Shown here one piece after another: positions 4,901 through 43,542 of a DNA stretch of 64,000 nt. The stretch covers positions 312,418,001 to 312,482,000 of the forward strand of contig CM097882.1 in assembly GCA_044892505.1 (NCBI GenBank), given 5' to 3'. The position numbers and the translations under genes were made by a program. The notes beneath the pieces are model-generated. The model saw only the letters and a list, made by a program, of their open reading frames with translations, did not search any database and was not told the origin of the DNA. Within the stretch, counting starts at the first letter, position 1, and each line of letters begins with the position of its first letter. This stretch comes from Schmidtea nova (lineage: Eukaryota).

Positions 4901-6515
4901 TGTAAACACCGCTAAAACAATTGGATTTGAATATCGTCCAGAAAAGTGCGCTTATATGCAATACCCTAAAATAGAAACTGTAAGCGAGATTTCTGTCAAC
5001 AACGTTCTTATAAAAAAGATTGCAACAAATGAATTTTACCAATACTTGGGAGTACCAATAGGTGACAATAATGACCAAAGTCCCTATGAAATTCTAAGCA
5101 AAGTAATTGAAGACACAAAGAAAATAGCAAATTCTGATCTTTACGGCTGGCAAAAACTTAAAGCGTATAAGGTCTTTCTGCATTCTCGCTTGATTTTTCC
5201 ATTTAGAACTAGGGAAATCAAAACAAGTTCTTTAGCTGATTCGAGTAAAAATTCAAAATTAAATGTAAATAATACGAGTATTTTGAGGAGTCATCTTAGA
5301 AAAATATTGCACTTGCCACACTACTCTGAGATTAGCTATTTTTATAATTCTACTGAAAACGGCGGTGCAGGCTGCATAGACTTACTTGACGAGTATCATA
5401 CACAGACAATCGTGTACTTTTTCCGCTTGTTAACATCAACGTGCGAATATTCGAAAAAGATAAATACTGACTCGCTTTTATTTGTCACAAGTCCGAGACT
5501 CGGAATCAAAAATCCAGTTCTTAAACAAAGTTTAGAATGGATAAATGGAAAAGACAGCAAGAAAAACAACAGTGGTTGCAAAACTCGATTTTATCGGTTG
5601 CGATCATCCATTGCTTACTTTTCTAAAGTTCACAACATTAAATTGTTATTTGAAACAGTGAAAGGGAATCCTTCTATCCGGATAACCACTACACTTAAGG
5701 GAACACGTATATTATTACCAACATTAAGAAAAGCCTTGTCAATGATTTTACATTCAGCTCTCCAGGATTCGTATCTCGAGAAATGGGAGAATAGCAATCA
5801 TAATAATCTGCTTGTATCTGCGATTAAACTCTGTCCACTTGTCAACAAGCTTATTTTCCGCAGTGATTTGACAGAATTTGAATGGAGATTCGTCCATCGA
5901 GCAAGAACGAATACATTATCAATATTTGCGAAGCCATATAAAACTGGCGAAAATCGTCTTTGTCGTAGATGTAAGCTTGAAGACGAGACTTTATCACACG
6001 TTCTTCAAACTTGTAAAATGAACAAATCTTTGGCAACTAGTCGACATAACGCTTGCTTAGAAAAAATAAAAAGCGAGTTGAAAGATCCAAACTTGTTAGT
6101 TGTTGCGGATCATAAATGTTCCCTAGTACCGACATCAACTGAACGCGTTGATTTAATAATAACCAATAATGATAAAAAGACCATATTATTGGTAGACATG
6201 AAATGCCCAATCGATTCGGTGCCCAACTTTGACTTGGCTGATAAAAAAAACATAGAAAAGTATGATAAACTAAAATCGGAAATTAAAATAGCCAAACCCG
6301 ATTATAAAGTTGAGTTGTTTACCTGCATCATAGGCTCATTAGGATCCATTGAAATTAAAACACCTGATCTTTTAGTAAAAATGGGCGTAAAAGAAAATAA
6401 AGTAAAACGTCTGATGAAAGAGTGTGCAATTAGCAATATTGCGCACTCGGCCAAAATTTGGTACTTTCATACCAATGGCTTTCTTCCAGATAATATAAGA
6501 CAAACTTTTAAATAA
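1905..6515 (+). CDS. ORF2: Ulp1-like protease(s) + reverse transcriptase + CCHC + restriction-like endonuclease, copy 1 (track start is GTG; in frame with ORF1)
   Basis: SHW(H97)..FID(D114)..QNNSFDCG(Q157,C163); WRPIALL, LDIKDAFGSVPH, GVKQGCP, YADD(978-981), YQYLG; CRRC-x8-H-x4-C(1353-1370), RHN, RVD..DMK. Confidence 0.95.
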   Translation: MPASAQSSAIPSNETDAESTTKNNISTIDNRDPEVWFSDNDIDWYLENHIDNPMHGYIKCFIVNIICSNITEDIVEIPPSISNAEIVFCPLNINNSHWILFVYSKKMLSSYFIDPILANRQKPINKQMAQRINLKLNRFFNLNISVSRHPHKHLEYQNNSFDCGPFTCAYAVIISKDLNSFPNGFIEKIRTSVHENQNRMQITESTLFAGTNSKMDMTKINIKKALAKKKVITNTSDMTKVLNTQKPCVSSIISKYYESNSKITVLSAELTLNLIAQNTSFIADNVTFKQFKGIDHVISIIPKFNDWCLFVYSNKLDRSYMFDFNYRNIDERLIEIGEKITEYLNQFTLVSKIKFTPHHRISHPTFHSYDDQYFASSFIVFFEKLVFERILDNDKVYDSLSALKYQSCKDLSPSLSFINGKISDKIIEEYFASLNLSTKYILLNTTMCTALSDDCTEYLKDFVNIECMMKATIIFVIISPPRANDLLMVIDYDADEHYLLSPVTNDLFVMTEGFCYKLLIKINEIRESTGRSLKSRNCRHDVKGSGLFSRLLICAFIKYYAFDRSLENINLHEIGKIIYSLVPLVDKNDNAEEERRLKSKAVNSLKLNLKQRIEKANNLIISLEHASIDEIISGILSNIPRLKDLNTDHIRTPYLGTKVEKARKFKNSTEFLSNMKKTVYRILGNNTESIAPPFQEIIDTFSHPDTLPRNWENIFKFTKSSKFSLELNPMTPKEILSSLCKADNTSPGLDNVCYKDLLLLDPECKLLAFLYNKILKLDIIPTSWKSFKTILIPKPDKNGQYHKIYSWRPIALLSVIYKVFASVLANRLSLWIRNNSMLHIGQKGGSEYEGCIEHNSILSAIVEHSKYSKSSPLTIAWLDIKDAFGSVPHDYMWTLLKHINVSDRFVGILKLLYTDTSSFYCCNKMQTPDIPIKKGVKQGCPISMILFAIAINPVLESINLSNVNPFTIGTSPVQVLAYADDIALIATNTSDLQILINVAVNTAKTIGFEYRPEKCAYMQYPKIETVSEISVNNVLIKKIATNEFYQYLGVPIGDNNDQSPYEILSKVIEDTKKIANSDLYGWQKLKAYKVFLHSRLIFPFRTREIKTSSLADSSKNSKLNVNNTSILRSHLRKILHLPHYSEISYFYNSTENGGAGCIDLLDEYHTQTIVYFFRLLTSTCEYSKKINTDSLLFVTSPRLGIKNPVLKQSLEWINGKDSKKNNSGCKTRFYRLRSSIAYFSKVHNIKLLFETVKGNPSIRITTTLKGTRILLPTLRKALSMILHSALQDSYLEKWENSNHNNLLVSAIKLCPLVNKLIFRSDLTEFEWRFVHRARTNTLSIFAKPYKTGENRLCRRCKLEDETLSHVLQTCKMNKSLATSRHNACLEKIKSELKDPNLLVVADHKCSLVPTSTERVDLIITNNDKKTILLVDMKCPIDSVPNFDLADKKNIEKYDKLKSEIKIAKPDYKVELFTCIIGSLGSIEIKTPDLLVKMGVKENKVKRLMKECAISNIAHSAKIWYFHTNGFLPDNIRQTFK

Positions 6516-6870
6516 ATAATTATATATATATATAAATATTTGCTTTTTAAACTCTGTAAATAAAAATTAAAGTAAATATTTTGTAAAGTAATTTTTGTAT
6601 TAAATATCCAATCTTTTTAATCTGATAAATTGTCTTTGAGAGTTATTAAATTGGGAGACCAAGTATTCTGCAACGTATGTCACTTATTCTAGACTTATCA
6701 ACTTCAAAAGAATACAGTCGCAAAGCTGGATGACGAAATCCAAAGAACCAGAAACTTCCATTCAGATTGAACAATTATATTTTGACTGTGATTGTTTAGG
6801 GACTAATCCATGTTGATTAGATAATCTGTAAAAAAAATATGTCAAACTTGTTATATTTAATAAATGTTTA
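6516..6870 (+). other. 355-nt 3' UTR of the element (same in all copies; 352 nt in copy 5), AATAAA at 6859-6864, no poly(A) tail
   Basis: Lies between the ORF2 TAA and the tRNA junction; repeated at each copy. Confidence 0.9.
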
Positions 6871-6925
6871 TTATCACGTCTGCCTAACACGCAGAAGGTC
6901 CCCGGTTCGATCCCGGGTCGAACCA
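6871..6925 (+). pseudogene. 5'-truncated tRNA-Val(AAC), nt 19-73, disrupted by element copy 1
   Basis: TTATCACG...TCGAACCA directly after the element end; nt 1-18 absent. Confidence 0.95.
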
Positions 6926-7105
6926 AATTTTTCTCAATTCATTATTTGACTTTTATTATATTTGCAACTCTTTTTTTAATTCATAACGCAATTTTGTTGT
7001 TGAATTCTCTACTTTGTACATAAATTTTATTCAAGTGAATTCAGTACATTTTGTCAAGGTAATTCGAAAATCAAACATGCACAACAATTGTTAGTTGAAA
7101 CTGTC

Positions 7106-7178
7106 GGTTCGATGGTGTAGCGGTTATCACGTCTGCCTAACACGCAGAAGGTCCCCGGTTCGATCCCGGGTCGAACCA
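7106..7178 (+). tRNA. trnV: tRNA-Val(AAC)
   Basis: Acceptor GGTTCGA/TCGAACC, anticodon arm TCTGC-CTAACAC-GCAGA, T arm CCCGG-TTCGATC-CCGGG, A73; A34 (inosine-type) anticodon indicates a eukaryote. Confidence 0.97.
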
Positions 7179-7180
7179 AA

Positions 7181-7185
7181 TTTTT
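7181..7185 (+). terminator. Pol III terminator T5, 2 nt after the discriminator base (present after every tRNA unit; a T7 tract follows ~45 nt later)
   Basis: GAACCA-AA-TTTTT; CTCTTTTTTTAA further downstream. Confidence 0.8.
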
Positions 7186-7358
7186 CTCAATTCATTATTT
7201 GACTTTTATTATATTTGCAACTCTTTTTTTAATTCATAACGCAATTTTGTTGGTGAATTCTCTACTTTGTACATAAATTTTATTCAAGTGAATTCAGTAC
7301 ATTTTGTCAAGGTAATTCGAAAATCAAACATGCACAACAATTGTTAGTTGAAACTGTC

Positions 7359-7431
7359 GGTTCGATGGTGTAGCGGTTATCACGTCTGCCTAACACGCAG
7401 AAGGTCCCCGGTTCGATCCCGGGTCGAACCA
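7359..7431 (+). tRNA. trnV: tRNA-Val(AAC)
   Basis: Identical to 7106-7178. Confidence 0.97.
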
Positions 7432-7611
7432 AATTTTTCTCAATTCATTATTTGACTTTTATTATATTTGCAACTCTTTTTTTAATTCATAACGCAATTT
7501 TGTTGTTGAATTCTCTACTTTGTACATAAATTTTATTCAAGTGAATTCAGTACATTTTGTCAAGGTAATTCGAAAATCAAACATGCACAACAATTGTTAG
7601 TTGAAACTGTC

Positions 7612-7684
7612 GGTTCGATGGTGTAGCGGTTATCACGTCTGCCTAACACGCAGAAGGTCCCCGGTTCGATCCCGGGTCGAACCA
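7612..7684 (+). tRNA. trnV: tRNA-Val(AAC)
   Basis: Identical to 7106-7178. Confidence 0.97.
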
Positions 7685-7864
7685 AATTTTTCTCAATTCA
7701 TTATTTGACTTTTATTATATTTGCAACTCTTTTTTTAATTCATAACGCAATTTTGTTGTTGAATTCTCTACTTTGTACATAAATTTTATTCAAGTGAATT
7801 CAGTACATTTTGTCAAGGTAATTCGAAAATCAAACATGCACAACAATTGTTAGTTGAAACTGTC

Positions 7865-7937
7865 GGTTCGATGGTGTAGCGGTTATCACGTCTGCCTAAC
7901 ACGCAGAAGGTCCCCGGTTCGATCCCGGGTCGAACCA
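7865..7937 (+). tRNA. trnV: tRNA-Val(AAC)
   Basis: Identical to 7106-7178. Confidence 0.97.
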
Positions 7938-8045
7938 AATTTTTCTCAATTCATTATTTGACTTTTATTATATTTGCAACTCTTTTTTTAAGTGTTGATA
8001 TATATATTGTAAATTTTAACGATTGATAAATTCTTTCAAGGTTCG

Positions 8046-10679
8046 ATGACTCAATCACCTGCTGCTCAGTCAACTGCTGCTGATGTAATGACTCAGTCTA
8101 TTGCAAATCAGTCAACTGTGACGAAGCAATATGAATTAGAAAACATTCTCAAATATCAAATTTCCAGTTTGCAATGTTTTCAATCGATTTTGGATTATTT
8201 TTCTCAACTAAATGGTGGAAATCTCGCTACTGCCTCAGTTCTATCTGATGCGAATGCAAGTCAACGGAGTTCTTTCGATCAAGGATCTAAAATTTCTCCA
8301 AACCAATCTGATAATATGCCACTTTCTTATGCTGATATTGAGACTAAATTCACTAAATCAAAGGATTTACTTATTGTCAAGCGCCTGGATTCATTGGAGT
8401 CTCAATTTATGAATATGGCTGAAAAGTTAGATTATTTGGTTTCTTTGTTTAATGGCTCTGTTGATGATTTATCAGATTTTCCTAAAGTAAATGAAAATAA
8501 TTTAAATAATAATCCTTTCAATAAAAATAAAGTTTTTGATATCAAAGATAAATTAATTGTAAATAATGTAGTTTTAGATAAATCAAATATTTCAGAATTT
8601 ATTGAAAATAATATTGCTAAAATTCCTAATAGTTTAATTGATGTAAATAATAAAATGTGTAATTCAAATAATAAATTTCTAAATAACCCTAATAAAGAGA
8701 ATGTTAAACATTTTAATAATCCCAAAGATACATCTTCAATTGATTTGACTAACGATAAAATTATGCCAAATGAAAACATAGAAATAATTATTAAAAATAA
8801 TAAAAAATCTGTTAAAATTATAGAACTTTATAAAACAACTAAACAGAAGTATGATAAATTTGAATTTAAAAGTCTGGTTCGTATTTTAACGAAAAGGGAA
8901 CGCCAGAAAATCTTGAATGCCTTCCCTGCTTTAATACAACTAATTAAAAAGAAAGAATCACAGAGTAAATATTTTGAAATTAATAAATTTCTTTCGAGCA
9001 AAGATTTTAATGTGAATCACTTGAATTTAATTAATTTTGATTATTTTTTCTATAGAAATTGTAATCTTTGTGTATCTTTAAAATTGAACAACGCTCCTGT
9101 CATTTCATCAGCACCAAAACCTGTTGTTTTAAAAACTATTAAATTAATTGACCATAATATCGTCAAAATAAATTCTGAAATCCCTGACTTTGTTCGAGCT
9201 CCAATGTCAATTCGAAGATTTTTATTCAATCTTTCGCACGATCTTTCAAACACTGTTTCCATCAAGGATGAGAAACACAGGGGAAATAAAATAAATAACA
9301 TTCTTACTTCAATGAAACATAAACAACAATTACCAGATTATTTAATAAAATCAAACATTAAATACGAAAATGGTGAGTTCTTATTATTAGATTTGACTAA
9401 CGATAAAATCAAATTGAACGACGATAATAACTTGATAAAATCAAATTTTTCTGAACTTACTAGAAGTCAGATTAAAAATCTTTACCATTCTTATCCTTCT
9501 CTTAAGGAAGTTTGTTTCGTTGAAAATCTTGAAACAAGATCATCATCCGTTAGTAAAATTATCGAATCTTTAAAGTTAATTAATGAATTTCCAAAAAATA
9601 TCATTTTTAAAGAGGGTAAATTTTATCAGTCTGATAAAAGAACAATCTCACCTAGTAGTTCTCCTGACATAATGTTCAACCTTGGTCTTTTTAATTTAGC
9701 TAGTATGAGTAGAAAAGATTGTGAATTAAAATCCATTTTAGAGAAGACTGGTTGTGACTTTAAAATAGTTGAAATAATATTCTACCTCAACTATTTAGGC
9801 TTGACTCAATCTTTAGAATTTTGCAAAAATCAAACTTATTCTGATTATGTGAGGAATTACGTCTGCAATTGCTGCTTGATAAACTCACTCTGTAGTATTG
9901 CTGATGTTGATTCGCTTTCATCTGAAGATTTTGAGGGTTGGGCGACCGAAATTGTTCAGAAAATCCCAGTTTCTTCCTATTACTTCAATAGCTGCCAGGA
10001 AAAGCTTTTAAAGCTGAAGCAATGGGACATTTCAACTAAAATCAAAAGAATCCATAACGTTATTTCACCTGAAATAATATCTTATTTAAATAACTTTCTT
10101 GACTCTGTAGACGTAAAATTTCCATCTAAGTCTCAACAACATAATATTCTAATTAAATTAATGAAAGCTATCAATGACATTAAAATTTTTGATGACATAC
10201 ACGGAAATAAAGCAAAAAGACTTGTTTACTTTTTGCTAAGAGATGCCAAGAAATATTTGAATAAAAATCAACGATTCAGATTATTTGAATCGAGCAATAA
10301 ATATTGCACTTTAGAGATGGAGAATATAATTTCAGTAATAATTGAGAACCTTACCAAAGTTACTGACCATGAAGTTACTACTCCTGAAATCACAGTTGAA
10401 GAAACGCCAATTGAAATAACTTGTGATCCTGAACCTATCGTCTTGATTAAGGAAATAAACTGTTTAAAATGCAACAATATCATCGAAAAATGCATTCTTG
10501 TTAGAGATGGAACAAACGTCAACATCTGTGAAAGCTGTCTATTTGACGCAATTACCTTTGAAAAGCCGATTCCTGAAGCTACTAATTCGGATATCGAAGA
10601 AAATATAGAAACAAATTGTAAGAAATCTTGTCCAAGACCTAGAAAAACAGACAAGAAAACATCAACCAAAGCAAAATGA
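8046..10679 (+). CDS. ORF1 (877 aa), unknown family; putative coiled coil, Asn-rich tract, C4 zinc finger, basic C-tail
   Basis: Long ORF kept in all copies; CLKC-x18-CESC at 10461-10538. Confidence 0.92.
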   Translation: MTQSPAAQSTAADVMTQSIANQSTVTKQYELENILKYQISSLQCFQSILDYFSQLNGGNLATASVLSDANASQRSSFDQGSKISPNQSDNMPLSYADIETKFTKSKDLLIVKRLDSLESQFMNMAEKLDYLVSLFNGSVDDLSDFPKVNENNLNNNPFNKNKVFDIKDKLIVNNVVLDKSNISEFIENNIAKIPNSLIDVNNKMCNSNNKFLNNPNKENVKHFNNPKDTSSIDLTNDKIMPNENIEIIIKNNKKSVKIIELYKTTKQKYDKFEFKSLVRILTKRERQKILNAFPALIQLIKKKESQSKYFEINKFLSSKDFNVNHLNLINFDYFFYRNCNLCVSLKLNNAPVISSAPKPVVLKTIKLIDHNIVKINSEIPDFVRAPMSIRRFLFNLSHDLSNTVSIKDEKHRGNKINNILTSMKHKQQLPDYLIKSNIKYENGEFLLLDLTNDKIKLNDDNNLIKSNFSELTRSQIKNLYHSYPSLKEVCFVENLETRSSSVSKIIESLKLINEFPKNIIFKEGKFYQSDKRTISPSSSPDIMFNLGLFNLASMSRKDCELKSILEKTGCDFKIVEIIFYLNYLGLTQSLEFCKNQTYSDYVRNYVCNCCLINSLCSIADVDSLSSEDFEGWATEIVQKIPVSSYYFNSCQEKLLKLKQWDISTKIKRIHNVISPEIISYLNNFLDSVDVKFPSKSQQHNILIKLMKAINDIKIFDDIHGNKAKRLVYFLLRDAKKYLNKNQRFRLFESSNKYCTLEMENIISVIIENLTKVTDHEVTTPEITVEETPIEITCDPEPIVLIKEINCLKCNNIIEKCILVRDGTNVNICESCLFDAITFEKPIPEATNSDIEENIETNCKKSCPRPRKTDKKTSTKAK

Positions 10680-10745
10680 AGATGTGTGCCTGCATCAGCT
10701 CAATCGTCTGCCATTCCCTCTAATGAGACTGATGCAGAGAGCACA
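10677..10745 (+). promoter_or_regulatory. Candidate UGA readthrough signal, copy 2
   Basis: Same stop + stem-loop as 1896-1964. Confidence 0.65.
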
Positions 10746-13700
10746 ACTAAAAATAATATTTCAACTATCGACAATCGTGATCCTGAAGTGTGGTTTTCTG
10801 ATAATGATATTGATTGGTATCTTGAAAACCACATTGATAATCCAATGCATGGATATATTAAATGCTTTATAGTAAATATCATCTGTTCTAACATCACAGA
10901 AGATATTGTTGAAATTCCACCATCTATTAGCAATGCTGAAATTGTATTTTGTCCACTCAACATTAACAATTCGCACTGGATTCTTTTTGTTTATAGTAAG
11001 AAAATGTTATCTTCTTACTTTATTGACCCAATCCTTGCAAACAGACAAAAGCCAATCAATAAACAAATGGCTCAGAGAATTAATCTAAAACTGAATAGAT
11101 TTTTTAATCTAAATATATCTGTGTCCCGACATCCACACAAACATCTTGAATATCAGAATAACAGCTTTGACTGTGGCCCATTTACGTGTGCTTATGCTGT
11201 GATTATCAGTAAAGATTTGAACAGCTTTCCAAATGGGTTCATAGAGAAAATTCGTACCAGTGTGCATGAAAATCAAAATCGTATGCAAATAACCGAATCC
11301 ACCTTATTCGCTGGTACTAACTCCAAGATGGACATGACCAAAATAAATATCAAGAAAGCCCTTGCAAAAAAGAAAGTCATCACCAACACCTCAGATATGA
11401 CCAAAGTATTGAACACTCAAAAACCGTGTGTGTCATCAATAATTAGTAAATATTACGAAAGTAATTCTAAAATAACAGTCTTATCTGCCGAACTAACTTT
11501 AAACCTAATTGCACAAAATACCTCCTTCATAGCTGATAATGTCACTTTCAAGCAGTTCAAAGGAATCGATCATGTTATAAGTATCATTCCTAAATTTAAC
11601 GATTGGTGTCTCTTTGTCTATTCGAATAAACTTGACAGGAGCTACATGTTCGACTTCAATTATCGAAACATTGATGAAAGGCTAATTGAAATTGGTGAAA
11701 AGATAACTGAATATCTGAATCAATTCACTCTTGTTTCTAAAATAAAATTCACACCTCATCATAGAATTTCTCATCCAACATTTCATTCTTACGATGATCA
11801 ATATTTTGCAAGTTCTTTTATTGTATTTTTTGAGAAACTTGTCTTTGAAAGAATACTGGACAATGATAAGGTTTATGACTCATTAAGTGCTCTAAAATAT
11901 CAGTCTTGTAAAGATCTTTCTCCTAGCCTAAGTTTCATTAATGGTAAAATATCCGACAAAATTATTGAGGAATATTTTGCTAGCCTAAACTTATCGACCA
12001 AATATATTCTTCTAAACACAACAATGTGTACTGCGCTTTCAGATGATTGCACTGAATACTTGAAAGACTTTGTAAACATTGAGTGCATGATGAAGGCTAC
12101 TATAATCTTTGTAATCATTTCTCCTCCAAGAGCCAACGACTTGCTCATGGTTATTGATTACGACGCTGATGAGCACTATTTATTAAGCCCAGTCACTAAT
12201 GACTTGTTCGTTATGACTGAAGGATTCTGCTATAAATTACTAATTAAAATTAATGAGATTAGAGAGAGCACAGGACGTTCCTTGAAATCGCGTAATTGTC
12301 GACATGACGTTAAAGGTTCTGGCTTATTTAGTAGGTTATTAATCTGTGCCTTTATTAAATATTATGCATTTGACCGATCTCTAGAAAATATCAATCTTCA
12401 TGAAATTGGCAAAATTATCTACTCACTTGTGCCATTGGTTGATAAAAATGATAATGCTGAGGAAGAAAGACGACTAAAATCAAAAGCTGTAAACTCTTTA
12501 AAACTAAATTTAAAACAGCGAATAGAAAAAGCCAATAATCTTATAATTTCACTTGAACACGCCAGTATTGATGAAATCATAAGTGGCATTCTTTCAAATA
12601 TTCCTCGTCTTAAAGATTTGAACACCGATCACATTCGTACACCATATTTAGGTACTAAAATAGAAAAAGCTAGAAAATTCAAAAATTCCACTGAGTTTCT
12701 GTCAAACATGAAAAAGACTGTGTATAGGATTTTGGGTAACAACACAGAATCAATTGCACCTCCTTATCAGGAAATTATTGACACTTTCAGTCATCCTGAT
12801 ACATTACCTAGAAATTGGGAAAACATCTTAAAATTCACTAAGAGTTCTAAATATAGTCTTGAATTAAATCCAATGACACCTAAAGAAATCCTTTCAAGTC
12901 TTTGCAAAGCTGACAACACTTCTCCAGGTCTTGATAATGTTTGTTATAAAGATCTTTTGTTATTAGACCCTGAATGTAAATTGCTAGCTTTTCTGTACAA
13001 TAAAATCCTAAAATTAGACATTATTCCTACAAGTTGGAAATCATTTAAAACGATACTAATCCCCAAACCAGATAAAAATGGCCAATATCATAAAATATAT
13101 TCTTGGCGACCAATTGCCTTATTATCTGTCATTTACAAAGTCTTCGCTTCAGTTTTGGCAAATCGTCTAAGCTTATGGATAAGAAATAATTCCATGTTAC
13201 ACATTGGCCAAAAGGGTGGTTCGGAGTACGAAGGATGTATTGAACACAACTCTATTCTTTCTGCTATCGTCGAACATTCAAAATACAGCAAGTCTTCACC
13301 TTTAACGATAGCTTGGCTAGACATCAAAGATGCCTTCGGAAGTGTTCCACATGACTACATGTGGACACTGTTAAAACACATAAATGTTAGTGATAGGTTT
13401 GTAGGAATTTTAAAACTGCTCTATACTGATACAAGCTCGTTTTACTGTTGCAATAAAATGCAGACACCGGATATTCCAATAAAGAAAGGAGTTAAACAAG
13501 GTTGTCCGATCTCAATGATATTGTTTGCAATAGCTATTAACCCAGTACTTGAGTCTATTAATCTATCAAACGTTAATCCTTTTACGATTGGAACATCTCC
13601 GGTACAGGTGTTGGCTTATGCGGATGATATCGCACTTATCGCGACAAATACCTCTGATCTGCAAATACTCATAAACGTTGCTGTAAACACCGCTAAAACA

Positions 13701-15296
13701 ATTGGATTTGAATATCGTCCAGAAAAGTGCGCTTATATGCAATTCCCTAAAATAGAAACTGTAAGCGAGATTTCTGTCAACAACGTTCTTATCAAAAAGA
13801 TTGCAACAAATGAATTTTACCAATACTTGGGAGTACCAATAGGTGACAATAATGATCAAAGTCCCTATGAAATTCTAAGCAAAGTAATTGAAGACACAAA
13901 GAAAATAGCAAATTCTGATCTTTACGGCTGGCAAAAACTTAAAGCGTATAAGGTCTTTCTGCATTCTCGCTTGATTTTTCCATTTAGAACTAGGGAAATC
14001 AAAACAAGTTCTTTAGCTGATTCGAGTAAAAATTCAAAATTAAATGTAAATAATACGAGTATTTTGAGGAGTCATCTTAGAAAAATATTGCACTTGCCAC
14101 ACTACTCTGAGATTAGCTATTTTTATAATTCTACTGAAAACGGCGGTGCAGGCTGCATAGACTTACTTGACGAGTATCATACACAGACAATCGTGTACTT
14201 TTTCCGTTTGTTAACATCAACGTGCGAATATTCGAAAAAGATAAATACTGACTCGCTTTTATTTGTCACAAGTCCGAGACTCGGAATCAAAAATCCAGTT
14301 CTTAAACAAAGTTTAGAATGGATAAATGGAAAAGAGAGCAAGAAAAACAACAGTGGTTGCAAAACTCGATTTTATCGGTTGCGATCATCCATTGCTTACT
14401 TTTCTAAAGTTCACAACATTAAATTGTTATTTGAAACAGTGAAAGGGAATCCTTCTATCCGTATAACCACTACACTTAAGGGAACACGTATATTATTACC
14501 AACATTAAGAAAAGCCTTGTCAATGATTTTACATTCAGCTCTCCAGGATTCGTATCTCGAGAAATGGGAGAATAGCAATCATAATAATCTGCTTGTATCT
14601 GCGATAAAACTCTGTCCACTTGTCAACAAGCTTATTTTCCGCAGTGATTTGACAGAATTTGAATGGAGATTCGTCCATCGAGCAAGAACGAATACATTAT
14701 CAATATTTGCGAAGCCATATAAAACTGGCGAAAATCGTCTTTGTCGTAGATGTAAGCTTGAAGACGAGACTTTATCACACGTTCTTCAAACTTGTAAAAT
14801 GAACAAATCTTTGGCAACTAGTCGACATAACGCTTGCTTAGAAAAAATAAAAAGCGAGTTGAAAGATCCAAACTTGTTAGTTGTTGCGGATCATAAATGT
14901 TCCCTAGTACCGACATCAACTGAACGCGTTGATTTAATAATAACCAATAATGATAAAAAGACCATATTATTGGTAGACATGAAATGCCCAATCGATTCGG
15001 TGCCCAACTTTGACTTGGCTGATAAAAAAAACATAGAAAAGTATGATAAACTAAAATCAGAAATTAAAATAGCCAAACCCGATTATAAAGTTGAGTTGTT
15101 TACCTGCATCATAGGCTCATTAGGATCCATTGAAATTAAAACACCTGATCTTTTAGTAAAAATGGGAGTAAAAGAAAATAAAGTAAAACGTCTGATGAAA
15201 GAGTGTGCAATTAGCAATATTGCGCACTCGGCCAAAATTTGGTACTTTCATACCAATGGCTTTCTTCCAGATAATATAAGACAAACTTGTAAATAA
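10686..15296 (+). CDS. ORF2 protease-RT-CCHC-RLE, copy 2
   Basis: Same motifs as copy 1; 7 aa differences. Confidence 0.95.
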   Translation: MPASAQSSAIPSNETDAESTTKNNISTIDNRDPEVWFSDNDIDWYLENHIDNPMHGYIKCFIVNIICSNITEDIVEIPPSISNAEIVFCPLNINNSHWILFVYSKKMLSSYFIDPILANRQKPINKQMAQRINLKLNRFFNLNISVSRHPHKHLEYQNNSFDCGPFTCAYAVIISKDLNSFPNGFIEKIRTSVHENQNRMQITESTLFAGTNSKMDMTKINIKKALAKKKVITNTSDMTKVLNTQKPCVSSIISKYYESNSKITVLSAELTLNLIAQNTSFIADNVTFKQFKGIDHVISIIPKFNDWCLFVYSNKLDRSYMFDFNYRNIDERLIEIGEKITEYLNQFTLVSKIKFTPHHRISHPTFHSYDDQYFASSFIVFFEKLVFERILDNDKVYDSLSALKYQSCKDLSPSLSFINGKISDKIIEEYFASLNLSTKYILLNTTMCTALSDDCTEYLKDFVNIECMMKATIIFVIISPPRANDLLMVIDYDADEHYLLSPVTNDLFVMTEGFCYKLLIKINEIRESTGRSLKSRNCRHDVKGSGLFSRLLICAFIKYYAFDRSLENINLHEIGKIIYSLVPLVDKNDNAEEERRLKSKAVNSLKLNLKQRIEKANNLIISLEHASIDEIISGILSNIPRLKDLNTDHIRTPYLGTKIEKARKFKNSTEFLSNMKKTVYRILGNNTESIAPPYQEIIDTFSHPDTLPRNWENILKFTKSSKYSLELNPMTPKEILSSLCKADNTSPGLDNVCYKDLLLLDPECKLLAFLYNKILKLDIIPTSWKSFKTILIPKPDKNGQYHKIYSWRPIALLSVIYKVFASVLANRLSLWIRNNSMLHIGQKGGSEYEGCIEHNSILSAIVEHSKYSKSSPLTIAWLDIKDAFGSVPHDYMWTLLKHINVSDRFVGILKLLYTDTSSFYCCNKMQTPDIPIKKGVKQGCPISMILFAIAINPVLESINLSNVNPFTIGTSPVQVLAYADDIALIATNTSDLQILINVAVNTAKTIGFEYRPEKCAYMQFPKIETVSEISVNNVLIKKIATNEFYQYLGVPIGDNNDQSPYEILSKVIEDTKKIANSDLYGWQKLKAYKVFLHSRLIFPFRTREIKTSSLADSSKNSKLNVNNTSILRSHLRKILHLPHYSEISYFYNSTENGGAGCIDLLDEYHTQTIVYFFRLLTSTCEYSKKINTDSLLFVTSPRLGIKNPVLKQSLEWINGKESKKNNSGCKTRFYRLRSSIAYFSKVHNIKLLFETVKGNPSIRITTTLKGTRILLPTLRKALSMILHSALQDSYLEKWENSNHNNLLVSAIKLCPLVNKLIFRSDLTEFEWRFVHRARTNTLSIFAKPYKTGENRLCRRCKLEDETLSHVLQTCKMNKSLATSRHNACLEKIKSELKDPNLLVVADHKCSLVPTSTERVDLIITNNDKKTILLVDMKCPIDSVPNFDLADKKNIEKYDKLKSEIKIAKPDYKVELFTCIIGSLGSIEIKTPDLLVKMGVKENKVKRLMKECAISNIAHSAKIWYFHTNGFLPDNIRQTCK

Positions 15297-15651
15297 ATAA
15301 TTATATATATATATAAATATTTGCTTTTTAAACTCTGTAAATAAAATTTAAAGTAAATATTTTGTAAAGTAATTTTTGTATTAAATATCAAATCTTTTTA
15401 ATCTGATAAATTGTCTTTGAGAGTTATTAAATTGGGAGACCAAGTATTCTGCAACGTATGTCACTTATTCTAGACTTATCAACTTCAAAATAATACAGTC
15501 GCAAAGCTGGATGACGAAATCCAAAGAACCAGAAACTTCCATTCAGATTGAACAATTATATTTTGACTGTGATTGTTTAGGCACTAATCCATGTTGATTA
15601 GATAATCTGTAAAAAAAATATGTCAAACTTGTTATATTTAATAAATGTTTA

Positions 15652-15706
15652 TTATCACGTCTGCCTAACACGCAGAAGGTCCCCGGTTCGATCCCGGGTC
15701 GAACCA
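15652..15706 (+). pseudogene. 5'-truncated tRNA-Val, nt 19-73
   Basis: Same junction as 6871. Confidence 0.95.
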
Positions 15707-15886
15707 AATTTTTCTCAATTCATTATTTGACTTTTATTATATTTGCAACTCTTTTTTTAATTCATAACGCAATTTTGTTGGTGAATTCTCTACTTTGTAC
15801 ATAAATTTTATTCAAGTGAATTCAGTACATTTTGTCAAGGTAATTCGAAAATCAAACATGCACAACAATTGTTAGTTGAAACTGTC

Positions 15887-15959
15887 GGTTCGATGGTGTA
15901 GCGGTTATCACGTCTGCCTAACACGCAGAAGGTCCCCGGTTCGATCCCGGGTCGAACCA
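15887..15959 (+). tRNA. trnV: tRNA-Val(AAC)
   Basis: Identical unit. Confidence 0.97.
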
Positions 15960-16139
15960 AATTTTTCTCAATTCATTATTTGACTTTTATTATATTTGCA
16001 ACTCTTTTTTTAATTCATAACGCAATTTTGTTGTTGAATTCTCTACTTTGTACATAAATTTTATTCAAGTGAATTCAGTACATTTTGTCAAGGTAATTCG
16101 AAAATCAAACATGCACAACAATTGTTAGTTGAAACTGTC

Positions 16140-16212
16140 GGTTCGATGGTGTAGCGGTTATCACGTCTGCCTAACACGCAGAAGGTCCCCGGTTCGATCC
16201 CGGGTCGAACCA
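16140..16212 (+). tRNA. trnV: tRNA-Val(AAC)
   Basis: Identical unit. Confidence 0.97.
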
Positions 16213-16392
16213 AATTTTTCTCAATTCATTATTTGACTTTTATTATATTTGCAACTCTTTTTTTAATTCATAACGCAATTTTGTTGTTGAATTCTCTACT
16301 TTGTACATAAATTTTATTCAAGTGAATTCAGTACATTTTGTCAAGGTAATTCGAAAATCAAACATGCACAACAATTGTTAGTTGAAACTGTC

Positions 16393-16465
16393 GGTTCGAT
16401 GGTGTAGCGGTTATCACGTCTGCCTAACACGCAGAAGGTCCCCGGTTCGATCCCGGGTCGAACCA
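16393..16465 (+). tRNA. trnV: tRNA-Val(AAC)
   Basis: Identical unit. Confidence 0.97.
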
Positions 16466-16573
16466 AATTTTTCTCAATTCATTATTTGACTTTTATTATA
16501 TTTGCAACTCTTTTTTTAAGTGTTGATATATATATTGTAAATTTTAACGATTGATAAATTCTTTCAAGGTTCG

Positions 16574-19205
16574 ATGACTCAATCACCTGCTGCTCAGTCA
16601 ACTGCTGCTGATGTAATGACTCAGTATATTGCAAATCAGTCAACTGTGACGAAGAAATATGAATTAGAAAACATTCTCAAATATCAAATTTCCAGTTTGC
16701 AATGTTTTCAATCGATTTTGGATTATTTTTCTCAACTAAATGGTGGAAATCTCGCTACTGCCTCAGTTCTATCTGATGCGAATGCAAGTCAACGGAGTTC
16801 TTTCGATCAAGGATCTAAAATTTCTCCAAACCAATCTGATAATATGCCACTTTCTTATGCTGATATTGAGACTAAATTCACTAAATCAAAGGATTTACTG
16901 ATTGTCAAGCGCCTGGATTCATTGGAGTCTCAATTTATGAATATGGCTGAAAAGTTAGATTATTTGGTTTCTTTGTTTAATGGCTCTGTTGATGATTTAT
17001 CAGATTTTCCTAAAGTAAATGAAAATAATTTAAATAATAATCCTTTCAATAAAAATAAAGTTTTTGATATCAAAGATAAATTAATTGTAAATAATGTAGT
17101 TTTAGATAAATCAAATATTTCAGAATTTATTGAAAATAATATTGCTAAAATTCCTAATAGTTTAATTGATGTAAATAATAAAATGTGTAATTCAAATAAT
17201 AAATTTCTAAATAACCCTAATAAAGAGAATGTTAAACATTTTAATAATCCCAAAGAAACATCTTCAATTGATTTGACTAACGATAAAATTATGCCAAATG
17301 AAAACATAGAAATAATTATTAAAAATAATAAAAAATCTGTTAAAATTATAGAACCTAATAAAACAACTAAACAGAAGTATGATAAATTTGAATTTAAAAA
17401 TCTGGTTCGTATTTTAACGAAAAGGGAACGCCAGAAAATCTTGAATGCCTTCCCTGCTTTAATACAACTAATTAAAAAGAAAGAATCACAGAGTAAATAT
17501 TTTGAAATTAATAAATTTCTTTCGAGCAAAGATTTTAATGTGAATCACTTGAATTTAATTAATTTTGATTATTTTTTCTATAGAAATTGTAATCTTTGTG
17601 TATCTTAAATTGAACAACGCTCCTGTCATTTCATCAGCACCAAAACCTGTTGTTTTAAAAACTATTAAATTAATTGACCATAATATCGTCAAAATAAATT
17701 CTGAAATCCCTGACTTTGTTCGAGCTCCAATGTCAATTCGAAGATTTTTATTCAATCTTTCGCACGATCTTTCAAACACTGTTTCCATCAAGGATGAGAA
17801 ACACAGGGGAAATAAAATAAATAACATTCTTACTTCAATGAAACATAAACAACAATTACCAGATTATTTAATAAAATCAAACATTAAATACGAAAATGGT
17901 GAGTTCTTATTATTAGATTTGACTAACGATAAAATCAAATTGAACGACGATAATAACTTGATAAAATCAAATTTTTCTGAACTTACTAGAAGTCAGATTA
18001 AAGATCTTTACTATTCTTATCCTTCTCTTAAGGAAGTTTGTTTCGTTGAAAATCTTGAAACAAGATCATCATCCGTTAGTAAAATTATCGAATCTTTAAA
18101 GTTAATTAATGAATTTCCAAAAAATATCATTTTTAAAGAGGGTAAATTTTATCAGTCTGATAAAAGAACAATCTCACCTAGTAGTTCTCCTGACATAATG
18201 TTCAACCTAGGTCTTTTTAATTTGGCTAGTATGAGTAGAAAAGATTGTGAATTAAAATCCATTTTAGAGAAGACTGGTTGTGACTTTAAAATAGTTGAAA
18301 TAATATTCTACCTCAACTATTTAGGCTTGACTCAATCTTTAGAATTTTGCAAAAATCAAACTTATTCCGATTATGTGAGGAATTACGTCTGTAATTGCTG
18401 CTTGATAAACTCACTCTGTAGTATTGCTGATGTTGATTCGCTTTCATCTGAAGATTTTGAGGGTTGGGCGACCGAAATTGTTCAGAAAATCCCAGTTTCT
18501 TCCTATTACTTCAATAGCTGCCAGGAAAAGCTTTTAAAGCTGAAGCAATGGGACATTTCAACTAAAATCAAAAGAATCCATAACGTTATTTCACCTGAAA
18601 TAATATCTTATTTAAATAACTTTCTTGACTCTGTAGACGTAAAATTTCCATCTAAGTCTCAACAACATAATATTCTAATTAAATTAATGAAAGCTATCAA
18701 TGACATTAAAATTTTTGATGACATACACGGAAATAAAGCAAAAAGACTTGTTTACTTTTTGCTAAGAGATGCCAAGAAATATTTGAATAAAAATCAACGA
18801 TTCAGATTATTTGAATCGAGCAATAAATATTGCACTTCAGAGATGGAGAATATAATTTCAGTAATAATTGAGAACCTTACCAAAGTTACTGACCATGAAG
18901 TTACTACTCCTGAAATCACAGTTGAAGAAACGCCAATTGAAATAACTTGTGATCCTGAACCTATCGTCTTGATTAAGGAAATAAACTGTTTAAAATGTAA
19001 CAATATCATCGAAAAATGCATTCTTGTTAGAGATGGAACAAACGTCAACATCTGTGAAAGCTGTCTATTTGACGCAATTACCTTTGAAAAGCCGATTCCT
19101 GAAGCTACTAATTCGGATATCGAAGAAAATATAGAAACAAATTGTAAGAAATCTTGTCCAAGACCTAGAAAAACAGACAAGAAAACATCAACCAAAGCAA
19201 AATGA
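16574..19205 (+). pseudogene. ORF1 of copy 3 split by a 2-bp deletion (premature TAA 17606-17608)
   Basis: tatcttaaattg versus tatctttaaaattg in the other copies; track shows 344-aa and 546-aa pieces. Confidence 0.85.
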
Positions 19206-40779: not shown

Positions 40780-40908
40780 AATTTTTCTCAATTCATTATT
40801 TGACTTTTATTATATTTGCAACTCTTTTTTTAATTCATAACGCAATTTTGTTGTTGAATTCTCTACTTTGTACATAAATTTTATTCAAGTGAATTCTTTC
40901 AAGGTTCG

Positions 40909-43542
40909 ATGACTCAATCACCTGCTGCTCAGTCAACTGCTGCTGATGTAATGACTCAGTCTATTGCAAATCAGTCAACTGTGACGAAGCAATATGAATT
41001 AGAAAACATTCTCAAATATCAAATTGCTAACTTGCAATATTTTCAATCGATTTTGGATTATTTTTCTCAACTAAATGGTGGAAATCTCGCTACTGCCTCA
41101 GTTCTATCTGATGCGAATGCAAGTCAACGGAGTTCTTTCGATCAAGGATCTAAAATTTCTCAAAACCAATCTGATAATATGCCACTTTCTTATGCTGATA
41201 TTGAGACTAAATTCACTAAATCAAAGGATTTACTGATTGTCAAGCGCCTGGATTCATTGGAGTCTCAATTTATGAATATGGCTGAAAAGTTAGATTATTT
41301 GGTTTCTTTGTTTAATGGCTCTGTTGATGATTTATCAGATTTTCCTAAAGTAAATGAAAATAATTTAAATAATAATCCTTTCAATAAAAATAAAGTTTTT
41401 GATATCAAAGATAAATTAATTGTAAATAATGTAGTTTTAGATAAATCAAATATTTCAGAATTTATTGAAAATAATATTGCTAAAATTCCTAATAGTTTAA
41501 TTGATGTAAATAATAAAATGTGTAATTCAAATAATAAATTTCTAAATAACCCTAATAAAGAGAATGTTAAACATTTTAATAATCCCAAAGATACATCTTC
41601 AATTGATTTGACTAACGATAAAATTATGCCAAATGAAAACATAGAAATAATTATTAAAAATAATAAAAAATCTGTTAAAATTATAGAACCTTATAAAACA
41701 ACTAAAGAGAAGTATGATAAATTTGAATTTAAAAGTCTGGTTCGTATTTTAACGAAAAGGGAACGCCAGAAAATCTTGAATGCCTTCCCTGCTTTAATAC
41801 AACTAATTAAAAAGAAAGAATCACAGAGTAAATATTTTGAAATTAATAAATTTCTTTCGAGCAAAGATTTTAATGTGAATCACTTGAATTTAAATAATTT
41901 TGATTATTTTTTCTATAGAAATTGTAATCTTTGTGTATCTTTAAAATTGAACAACGCTCCTGTCATTTCATCAGCACCAAAACCTGTTGTTTTAAAAACT
42001 ATTAAATTAATTGACCATAATATCGTCAAAATAAATTCTGAAATCCCTGACTTTGTTCGAGCTCCAATGTCAATTCGAAGATTTTTATTCAATCTTTCGC
42101 ACGATCTTTCAAACACTGTTTCCATCAAGGATGAGAAACACAGGGGAAATAAAATAAATAACATTCTTACTTCAATGAAACATAAACAACAATTACCAGA
42201 TTATTTAATAAAATCAAACATTAAATACGAAAATGGTGAGTTCTTATTATTAGATTTGACTAACGATAAAATCAAATTGAACGACGATAATAACTTGATA
42301 AAATCAAATTTTTCTGAACTTACTAGAAGTCAGATTAAAAATCTTTACTATTCTTATCCTTCTCTTAAGGAAGTTTGTTTCGTTGAAAATCTTGAAACAA
42401 GATCATCATCCGTTAGTAAAATTATCGAATCTTTAAAGTTAATTAATGAATTTCCAAAAAATATCATTTTTAAAGAGGGTAAATTTTATCAGTCTGATAA
42501 AAGAACAATCTCACCTAGTAGTTCTCCTGACATAATGTTCAATCTTGGTCTTTTTAATTTGGCTAGTATGAGTAGAAAAGATTGTGAATTAAAATCCATT
42601 TTAGAGAAGACTGGTTGTGACTTTAAAATAGTTGAAATAATATTCTACCTCAACTATTTAGGCTTGACTCAATCTTTAGAATTTTGCAAAAATCAAACTT
42701 ATTCTGATTATGTGAGGAATTACGTCTGTAATTGCTGCTTGATAAACTCACTCTGTAGTATTGCTGATGTTGATTCGCTTTCATCTGAAGATTTTGAGGG
42801 TTGGGCGACCGAAATTGTTCAGAAAATCCCAGTTTCTTCCTATTACTTCAATAGCTGCCAGGAAAAGCTTTTAAAGCTGAAGCAATGGGACATTTCAACT
42901 AAAATCAAAAGAATCCATAACGTTATTTCACCTGAAATAATATCTTATTTAAATAACTTTCTTGACTCTGTAGACGTAAAATTTCCATCTAAGTCTCAAC
43001 AACATAATATTCTAATTAAATTAATGAAAGCTATCAATGACATTAAAATTTTTGATGACATACACGGAAATAAAGCAAAAAGACTTGTTTACTTTTTGCT
43101 AAGAGATGCCAAGAAATATTTGAATAAAAATCAACGATTCAGATTATTTGAATCGAGCAATAAATATTGCACTTTAGAGATGGAGAATATAATTTCAGTA
43201 ATAATTGAGAACCTTACCAAAGTTACTGACCATGAAGTTACTACTCCTGAAATCACAGTTGAAGAAACGCCAATTGAAATAACTTGTGATCCTGAACCTA
43301 TCGTCTTGATTAAGGAAATAAACTGTTTAAAATGTAACAATATCATCGAAAAATGCATTCTTGTTAGAGATGGAACAAACGTCAACATCTGTGAAAGCTG
43401 TCTATTTGACGCAATTACCTTTGAAAAGCCGATTCCTGAAGCTACTAATTCGGATATCGAAGAAAATATAGAAACAAATTGTAAGAAATCTTGTCCAAGA
43501 CCTAGAAAAACAGACAAGAAAACATCAACCAAAGCAAAATGA
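40909..43542 (+). CDS. ORF1 (877 aa), copy 6
   Basis: ORF track. Confidence 0.92.
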   Translation: MTQSPAAQSTAADVMTQSIANQSTVTKQYELENILKYQIANLQYFQSILDYFSQLNGGNLATASVLSDANASQRSSFDQGSKISQNQSDNMPLSYADIETKFTKSKDLLIVKRLDSLESQFMNMAEKLDYLVSLFNGSVDDLSDFPKVNENNLNNNPFNKNKVFDIKDKLIVNNVVLDKSNISEFIENNIAKIPNSLIDVNNKMCNSNNKFLNNPNKENVKHFNNPKDTSSIDLTNDKIMPNENIEIIIKNNKKSVKIIEPYKTTKEKYDKFEFKSLVRILTKRERQKILNAFPALIQLIKKKESQSKYFEINKFLSSKDFNVNHLNLNNFDYFFYRNCNLCVSLKLNNAPVISSAPKPVVLKTIKLIDHNIVKINSEIPDFVRAPMSIRRFLFNLSHDLSNTVSIKDEKHRGNKINNILTSMKHKQQLPDYLIKSNIKYENGEFLLLDLTNDKIKLNDDNNLIKSNFSELTRSQIKNLYYSYPSLKEVCFVENLETRSSSVSKIIESLKLINEFPKNIIFKEGKFYQSDKRTISPSSSPDIMFNLGLFNLASMSRKDCELKSILEKTGCDFKIVEIIFYLNYLGLTQSLEFCKNQTYSDYVRNYVCNCCLINSLCSIADVDSLSSEDFEGWATEIVQKIPVSSYYFNSCQEKLLKLKQWDISTKIKRIHNVISPEIISYLNNFLDSVDVKFPSKSQQHNILIKLMKAINDIKIFDDIHGNKAKRLVYFLLRDAKKYLNKNQRFRLFESSNKYCTLEMENIISVIIENLTKVTDHEVTTPEITVEETPIEITCDPEPIVLIKEINCLKCNNIIEKCILVRDGTNVNICESCLFDAITFEKPIPEATNSDIEENIETNCKKSCPRPRKTDKKTSTKAK

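What the first reader, a model, noticed from the sequence alone, without database searches (positions are those of the whole stretch)
8040..8048. The element leader ends in tRNA-Val nt 1-9 (GGTTCGATG), and those bases include the ORF1 start codon
Seen: every visible 5' end reads ...TTCA(A/G)-GGTTCGATG-ACTCAATC. GGTTCGATG is exactly tRNA nt 1-9 and its ATG (nt 7-9) is ORF1 Met1. With the 3' junction at nt 19, the element looks like an insertion that replaced tRNA nt 10-18 (GTGTAGCGG). However, the 48 nt upstream (7992-8039) are not this array's tRNA 5' flank (GTTGAAACTGTC). Inference: the mobile unit carries a relic of an earlier target locus (flank plus tRNA 5' end), much as R2 RNAs carry upstream 28S sequence, and it may have borrowed its start codon from the host tRNA gene.
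Basis: partly seen in the sequence, partly recalled or inferred. Interest (0 to 1): 0.7.

Follow-up and report, generated by a model that had tools for sequence, protein, structure and literature searches.

The report
Retrotransposon leader captured from tRNA gene
A jumping gene that sits in repeated valine tRNA genes begins with a piece identical to the front of a tRNA gene in a second array 36 million bases away, likely carried along in its RNA as in known fly elements, while its start codon is likely its own and only overlaps the tRNA letters.

Summary
Observation confirmed. All 7 visible 5' ends in the window read GGTTCGATG, which is tRNA-Val nt 1-9, and its ATG opens ORF1. The 48-nt leader (only 4 of 7 copies) is the exact 5' flank of intact tRNA-Val(TAC) genes in a second, extant array (C1:348 Mb). 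There 20 of 35 complete copies show a clean loss of nt 10-18. Copies in Val(AAC), Ser, Arg and Leu arrays carry 0-50 nt of this flank, so it travels with the element. The borrowed start codon is not supported: three other lineages have ATG-NNN-CAA-TC at the same place behind different leaders, which points to a microhomology join at the element's own ATG. The element is a two-ORF Ulp1/RT/restriction-like non-LTR retrotransposon resembling the planarian R5/LIN group. Its 5' structure closely parallels Drosophila melanogaster-type R1A (9-bp deletion, upstream target tag). No RNA data were found, so the transcript start is inferred; a TATA box about 30 nt before a junction cluster hints at promoter capture. 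The scan found this family and junction before on other DNA (e1-9315082, e1-9074025).

The parts
7865..7937 (+). Intact tRNA-Val(AAC) of the local 253-bp array, last gene before the element
   Evidence: ARAGORN, Rfam
7938..7991 (+). 54 nt of local array spacer; ends in an AA microhomology (7990-7991) with the captured flank (class A junction)
7990..8039 (+). Captured leader: last 50 nt of spacer S1, the 5' flank of tRNA-Val(TAC) in the second array at G000:C1:348.07-348.47 Mb
7999..8006 (+). TATATATA inside the captured flank, 29-31 nt before 8028-8030; candidate promoter element (untested)
   Evidence: sequence; spacing rule recalled
8026..8031 (+). Zone (-14 to -9 before tRNA nt 1) where 6 of 12 independent non-homologous 5' junctions fall; inferred main RNA/cDNA end
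8040..8048 (+). tRNA-Val nt 1-9; last three bases overlap ORF1 Met1 (microhomology join, inferred)
8046..8129 (+). Degenerate 42-nt duplication at the ORF1 start (24 of 33 nt); second unit opens with Met15 at 8088
8046..10679 (+). ORF1, 877 aa, no Pfam family above cut-off and no homologue found in the protein search
10680..15296 (+). ORF2 frame, 1538 codons after the ORF1 stop: Ulp1/C48 protease, reverse transcriptase (YADD), CCHC finger (14742-14795), restriction-like endonuclease motif (14925-14984)
15297..15651 (+). 3' UTR, no poly(A); its last 40 nt resemble the LIN25_SM 3' end
   Evidence: comparison by eye
15652..15706 (+). tRNA-Val(AAC) nt 19-73; fixed 3' junction in the D-loop (GG|TTA)
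16568..16576 (+). Same 9-mer, class A copy (also 24588 and 32863)
40903..40911 (+). Same 9-mer, class B copy with 6-11 nt of flank (also 53500 and 61627)

Best explanation
The 9-mer and the 48-50 nt before it are identical to the front of tRNA-Val(TAC) genes in a second array, and they are likely carried in the element's RNA and re-inserted at new sites, joined to the element at what is likely its own ATG by microhomology. Steps. (1, shown) The family always ends at the D-loop GG|TTA of tRNA genes, mostly Val. (2, inferred) A founder cDNA ending near the ancestral start context (AAAAC(G)ATG-like) annealed by 3-5 nt, (CG)ATG, to tRNA-Val nt 5/7-9, losing nt 10-18. (3, inferred) Having no 5' UTR of its own, the element is transcribed from starts in the host DNA in front of it, mainly 9-14 nt before tRNA nt 1, probably by Pol II (18 runs of 5 or more T on the sense strand argue against Pol III). 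(4, structure shown, mechanism inferred) In the home array the tag anneals to the same flank and gives uniform junctions; in foreign arrays it joins by chance microhomology with variable loss of upstream target; new junctions can in turn be carried on. (5, shown) Recombination between copies decouples junction class from element body. (6, inferred) Junctions cutting into ORF1 are lost, so leaders get replaced right up to the ATG in lineage after lineage.
For: Flank found before 146 intact tRNA-Val genes. 34 of 36 5' ends in array 2 sit behind the whole 297-nt spacer (one with a TA-repeat variant); 20 of 35 complete copies lack exactly nt 10-18 of Val(TAC). 112 of 112 visible 5' ends keep TTCGATG, 101 the whole 9-mer. 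Only 1 genome-wide match has a base other than A before the 9-mer, and it is a variant of the same flank, so no copy uses the local AAC or S2 flank. 8 copies in Ser, Arg and Leu arrays or at a contig edge carry up to 12 nt of the flank; 2 of them also carry 18 nt of array-1 spacer, i.e. second-round capture. ATG-NNN-CAA-TC stands at the same place in the Pro subfamily, F80 (18 of 21 nt identical to Val; 5 of 9 loci examined show the start) and a 68-71% relic, each behind a different leader that ends in a piece resembling a Pro-array spacer; F80 shares CG before ATG. Mosaic bodies share haplotypes across arrays and classes. Published parallel: melanogaster-type R1A.
Against: No RNA run holds the element, so no transcript end was seen. 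An old copy at the edge of array 1 (C1:312872132; 91% to Val, 90% to Pro) already has the whole flank plus nt 1-9, so the tRNA join may predate the Val/Pro split and the Pro subfamily alone does not prove the ATG ancestral. The deeper F3 family has TTG at this position. Forks for F80 and the relic are weakly supported. In 3 of 4 leader types a host ATG seems to lie under the start codon, which also fits repeated re-supply from the host. The junction cluster is only P = 0.024 against a uniform 55-nt window and may reflect AT-rich microhomology. Long leaders (the whole spacer in the old copy) could have moved at DNA level.
Confidence: 0.7

Rival explanations
1. Start codon truly supplied by the host: cDNAs truncated inside codon 1 survive only if the junction restores an in-frame ATG from host DNA, here tRNA nt 7-9.
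For: Host ATG or AT lies at the join in Val (exact), the relic (17 of 18 nt to Pro-AGG spacer including ATG), F80 (7 of 8 after a 5-nt gap) and Pro (AT). F3 has TTG there. The tRNA join is old. A different element in this genome has an ORF that opens at an ATG in antisense 28S sequence.
Against: All four lineages start in the same register (M-x-Q-S), whereas random truncation plus rescue should vary the N-terminus. ATG1 is in register with the second unit of a 42-nt duplication (24 of 33 nt; 1 of 827 in-frame windows scores as high). An AAAAC-like context is shared by three lineages.
Confidence: 0.15
2. The flank moved between arrays at DNA level (gene conversion or unequal exchange between element copies, or an older shared array unit), not in RNA.
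For: Bodies are strongly mosaic. An old whole S1 unit behind an AAC tRNA lies at the edge of array 1. Few junction classes are amplified to many copies (39 B, 14 A).
Against: Copies on other chromosomes in Ser, Arg and Leu arrays have exact D-loop 3' ends plus 9-12 nt of flank joined by microhomology or small duplications, which is the signature of target-primed insertion.
Confidence: 0.1
3. The RNA is trans-spliced at the AG in TTTCAAG|GTTCG, as recalled for nematode NeSL, and the flank is an outron.
For: 3 of 12 independent junctions begin at nt 2-3 of the tRNA. An AG follows a pyrimidine run.
Against: 9 of 12 junctions keep sequence upstream of the AG. No common foreign sequence is seen at the junctions. 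Pro and F80 leaders have no such AG next to the ATG.
Confidence: 0.05

Closest known systems
Planarian LIN families of the R5/LIN lineage, NeSL clade (LIN25_SM tRNA-Glu, LIN15_SM tRNA-Arg; PMC4640811, passages and S6 Fig parts 1-2 of 3 read)
   Same: Restriction-like-endonuclease non-LTR element inserted in tRNA genes with precise 3' ends; 3' terminus resembles LIN25_SM (16-nt exact stretch, by eye); several isoacceptor genes used, as for LIN15_SM.
   Different: Main target tRNA-Val at nt 18|19, with spill-over to Ser, Arg and Leu. No 5' boundary is shown for LIN25_SM and one for LIN15_SM in the parts read. No host-flank leader is described there.
Drosophila melanogaster-type R1A (PMC2718515; section 18 whole, section 11 part 1 of 2 and passages read)
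   Same: Precise 9-bp target deletion in most full-length copies; transcripts inferred to carry 6-27 nt of upstream target; a minority with duplications up to 17 bp plus the tag (here 13 bp, class D); tag visible at off-target sites.
   Different: R1 is an APE-type element (recalled) in Pol I-transcribed 28S genes, and the authors invoke a shifted top-strand cut. Here the target is a tRNA gene, the tag abuts the start codon with no element 5' UTR, and tags from successive hosts stack.
R2 elements with ribozyme cleavage upstream in 28S (PMC3774820, abstract and outline only)
   Same: Upstream target sequence on the RNA gives uniform 5' junctions; without homology junctions vary by microhomology.
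   Different: No ribozyme match in Rfam at E up to 1 over 6400-16700; no long 5' UTR; two ORFs.
Fish R2 families replacing 110-130 bp of upstream 28S (PMC5035012, passages)
   Same: Fixed, long apparent loss of upstream target (here 81 and 144 bp in the AAC array).
   Different: There linked to 28S-derived sequence in the 3' UTR; here to an inherited 5' junction.

Membership tests
R2-group (restriction-like endonuclease) non-LTR retrotransposon | RT followed by CCHC finger and PD..D-x-K endonuclease motif; no LTRs | tested here: met
   RVT_1 E 1.8e-29; CX2CX8HX4C at aa 1355 and RVD-x-D-x-K at aa 1416; no terminal repeats in the junctions
R2-group (restriction-like endonuclease) non-LTR retrotransposon | Precise 3' junction at a fixed target site, variable 5' junction | tested here: met
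   All 114 3' ends read (67 array 1, 36 array 2, 10 elsewhere, plus 1) join TTA of a D-loop except one in non-tRNA DNA; 12 different non-homologous 5' junctions
NeSL clade | N-terminal Ulp1-like protease in some members | tested here: met
   PF02902 E 6.3e-7; HW and QNNSFDCG motifs
NeSL clade | RT phylogeny with named NeSL/Utopia/R5/LIN sequences | tested here: inconclusive
   Tree of 29 rows puts it in a 100/99 clade of unnamed two-domain relatives, apart from turtle, nematode and arthropod hits; no named R5/LIN protein was available
R5/LIN lineage of planarians | Flatworm host | tested here: inconclusive
R5/LIN lineage of planarians | Target specificity for rRNA or tRNA genes; LIN25-like 3' end | tested here: met
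R2 clade with HDV-like ribozyme | 5' self-cleaving ribozyme | tested here: not met
   No Rfam hit besides tRNA and sub-threshold noise; only host-derived sequence before the ATG. Works like, is not a member.
Melanogaster-type R1A | APE endonuclease and 28S target | tested here: not met
   No APE family in Pfam scan; tRNA target. Mechanistic analogue only.
Melanogaster-type R1A | Transcript carries upstream target sequence | not testable with these tools
   No RNA holder listed; inferred from junctions only

The most novel reading that the evidence does not exclude
A promoterless, UTR-less retrotransposon has captured the TATA box and start site of a host tRNA gene and uses them to make its mRNA, and its lineages keep swapping host leaders exactly at the start codon, so that each leader is a stacked record of past tRNA arrays and in some lineages the host supplies the ATG itself.
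Probability: 0.3. Interest if true: 0.65.

Novelty: new variant of a known kind. Interest (0 to 1): 0.42.

Why it matters
It shows how a site-specific retrotransposon can live in Pol III gene arrays without a promoter or 5' UTR of its own, and extends the upstream-target-tag mechanism from rDNA elements to tRNA genes. The genome holds at least 115 near-identical, mostly full-length copies, sister families on Pro, Gly, His, Glu and Asp tRNAs and one on TTA repeats, and a traceable series of captured leaders. That makes second-strand joining and target switching testable. The core mechanism has a close published precedent, which limits the surprise.

Tried and rejected
Chance 9-mer or B-box mimic: rejected, the match extends over the whole 297-nt spacer. 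Long target-site duplications (109-172 bp in array 1, about 360 bp in array 2): not supported. The two flanks differ in 6 of 24 class B copies against 35 of 352 neighbouring units (which covered 464 kb of array 1), and in 9 of 13 CAC-ended copies (correcting one mis-assigned row among 14) against 71 of 163 neighbours. Class A (0 of 14) and C (0 of 6) are uninformative. The 13 CAC-ended copies were not used as proof of CAC targeting, because 16 empty S1-CAC units exist and a crossover inside the tRNA would give the same. Ribozyme: none in Rfam. RNA: no RNA holder listed; the four runs are contigs with transposase adapter ends and show no starts. ORF1 homologue search: none among 7992 candidates of 482-1535 aa. 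The middle piece of the Pro-subfamily leader occurs 64 times, spaced like element copies, so no host source was found. The original R5 paper is not held. Paper searches listed nothing on a tRNA-Val LIN element or this leader; Repbase and subscription journals were not searchable, and S6 Fig part 3 and the other supplements were not read. My first reading that the Pro subfamily alone proves the ATG ancestral was dropped. A count of 3' ends outside array 1 by one long pattern was not obtained; dispersed copies came from the protein search.

Full report
Setting. The window is G000:C1:312418001-312482000 of a 1.25-Gb genome. It holds 34 full tRNA-Val(AAC) genes in a 253-bp tandem array interrupted by eight copies of a 7.6-kb element. 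ORF1 (877 aa) has no Pfam family above cut-off and no homologue in the protein search. ORF2 has an Ulp1 protease, a reverse transcriptase, a CCHC finger and a restriction-like endonuclease motif. The closest described group is the planarian R5/LIN lineage of the NeSL clade, with tRNA-Arg and tRNA-Glu specific members (PMC4640811, passages and S6 Fig parts 1-2). By eye the element's 3' end resembles LIN25_SM, and tRNA flanks resemble those of S. mediterranea, so the host is probably a planarian (inference).

Observation. 7 of 7 visible 5' ends read GGTTCGATG directly before ACTC; this is tRNA nt 1-9 and its ATG is ORF1 Met1; 7 of 7 3' ends join nt 19. Four copies have the 48-nt leader, three only its last 6-11 nt.

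Source of the leader. A pattern of leader end plus tRNA nt 1-10 has 225 matches at up to one mismatch; 70 of the 100 listed are exact and lie at C1:348.09-348.31 Mb. That region is a second array of alternating Val(CAC) and Val(TAC) genes; the leader is the end of its 297-nt spacer S1. In 400 kb, 146 of 325 full genes stand behind this flank (130 TAC, 16 CAC). In 4 of 4 public runs a contig on the leader continues as tRNA nt 10 onward. The array holds the same family: 34 of 36 5' ends follow the whole S1 plus nt 1-9, and of 35 complete copies 20 resume at nt 19 of Val(TAC), 13 at Val(CAC), and 2 have other 5' joins. So the loss of nt 10-18 is real there.

The flank travels. Of 116 rows, 112 had a visible 5' end (68 in array 1, 36 in array 2, 8 elsewhere) and 4 had none. 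The scan needed the first 21 nt after the ATG, so copies cut inside them would fall among those 4. All 112 keep TTCGATG and 101 the full 9-mer. Array 1 has 39 class B (11 nt of S1 including microhomology), 14 class A (50), 6 class C (36), 7 class D (joined at tRNA nt 31, a 13-bp duplication if local), one with 14 nt and one old copy with the whole spacer. Genome-wide only one copy has a base other than A before the 9-mer, a variant of class B. Ten dispersed copies were fetched from the hits: six in Ser arrays, one in an Arg/Pro array, one before a Leu array, one truncated at a Ser(GCT) array edge and one in non-tRNA DNA. All end at TTA, and the eight full-length ones carry up to 12 nt of S1; two also carry 18 nt of array-1 spacer, so a class B copy served as donor. 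There are 115 3' ends in the genome. Element bodies differ by about 0.6%, are mosaic, share haplotypes across arrays and junction classes, and contain tracts with Pro-subfamily alleles. Flank comparisons give no sign of long duplications, so variable upstream loss is preferred.

Where the RNA may start. Twelve independent non-homologous junctions keep -2, -1, -1, 9, 10, 10, 11, 12, 14, 24, 36 and 50 nt of S1 before tRNA nt 1. Six fall within six positions: P = 0.024 if uniform over 55 nt, 1.5e-5 over 300 nt. TATATATA at 7999-8006 lies 29-31 nt before that zone; this spacing, and pre-tRNA starts 10-15 nt before the gene, are recalled from general knowledge. Eighteen runs of five or more T argue against Pol III. 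Against a strict need for the TATA box, a class B donor without it gave a copy with 29 nt of upstream sequence. No RNA data were available.

Whose ATG. A subfamily 90% identical in DNA (95% in ORF2) lives in tRNA-Pro arrays and starts at the same ATG behind an unrelated leader that includes Pro-spacer pieces; it has TTG at codon 15 (9 of 9 full 5' ends printed for the ten loci fetched). An old broken copy at the edge of array 1 has the whole diverged S1 (338 of 361) plus nt 1-9 but Pro-like codons 2 and 15, so the tRNA join is old and may predate that split. Two deeper lineages decide more. F80 starts ATG ACG CAA TCT ACT GCT GCT (18 of 21 to Val) behind a Pro(TGG) spacer piece and AAACG in 5 of 9 loci examined. 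A relic at C1:312874465 starts ATG CAC CAA TCA behind a Pro(AGG) spacer-like piece. All read M-x-Q-S, and Met1 is in register with a 42-nt duplication. I infer an ancestral ATG joined to host DNA by microhomology again and again. Against this, the deeper F3 family has TTG there and starts eleven codons later, tree support is weak, and host ATGs under the start codon also fit re-supply. Met1 has T at -3 while Met15 has G, so which is used is open.

Precedent. Melanogaster-type R1A shows a precise 9-bp deletion in 75% of full-length copies, an inferred 6-27 nt upstream tag on the RNA, and rearranged junctions with duplications up to 17 bp (PMC2718515, sections 18 and 11 part 1). R2 RNAs cleaved upstream in 28S give uniform junctions (PMC3774820, abstract). 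The element works like these but is not a member of either. My searches listed no paper on this leader in tRNA-specific elements; Repbase was not visible. Earlier scan notes describe the same junction in both arrays; I had reached the reading before opening them.

Verdict. Observation confirmed, capture of a host flank well supported, borrowed start codon not supported though not excluded. A new variant of a known kind; interest 0.42.

Noticed in passing
G000:C1:611.77-611.79 Mb (L248, L249), C39 (L246), C55 (L247), dispersed L232-L234: An element of about 2.4 kb with one ORF and no RT match within 8 kb sits antisense at the 28S site shown for LIN9_SM. Its ORF runs 579 aa from an ATG inside the antisense 28S sequence (MNAWPPQ...), and dispersed copies carry about 58 nt of diverged 28S plus a further layer from its own ORF. 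By eye the LIN9_SM 5' junctions in S6 Fig have the same ATG in frame: a better candidate for a host-supplied start codon.
   Followed up: partly
L181-L190, L199-L210: Related families partition tRNA arrays at the D-loop: Pro (95% ORF2 identity), Gly(TCC) (56%), His/Glu/Asp (54%); all have short AT-rich leaders with variable 5' ends.
   Followed up: partly
L191-L198: F3, the next closest family (70% ORF2 identity), is dispersed and ends in TTA repeats instead of tRNA genes: a target switch that keeps the TTA of the D-loop site.
   Followed up: partly
G000:C1:348164659 (L071): One 5' junction contains GGGTTAGGGTT, a telomere-like insert, between a cut tRNA and the leader.
   Followed up: no
window 10677-10691: ORF2 follows the ORF1 stop in the same frame without an ATG; R/G/W-C/Y-V-P-A is conserved in all five families and database relatives begin xPAS/xPAP. 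Earlier notes propose read-through.
   Followed up: no
G000:C1:312864000-312875000: The right edge of array 1 holds progressively older relics, including an AAC tRNA followed by the array-2 spacer S1 and a relic leader with a piece of spacer S2, suggesting past exchange between the two Val arrays.
   Followed up: partly
window 16574-19205 and 53506-55464: One copy has a frameshift in ORF1 and one an in-frame loss of about 675 nt; ORF2 is intact in all seven complete frames.
   Followed up: no
element body positions about 4700-4950 and array 2 left edge: Val-family copies contain tracts with Pro-subfamily alleles, and the first copy of array 2 is a Pro/Val chimera.
   Followed up: partly
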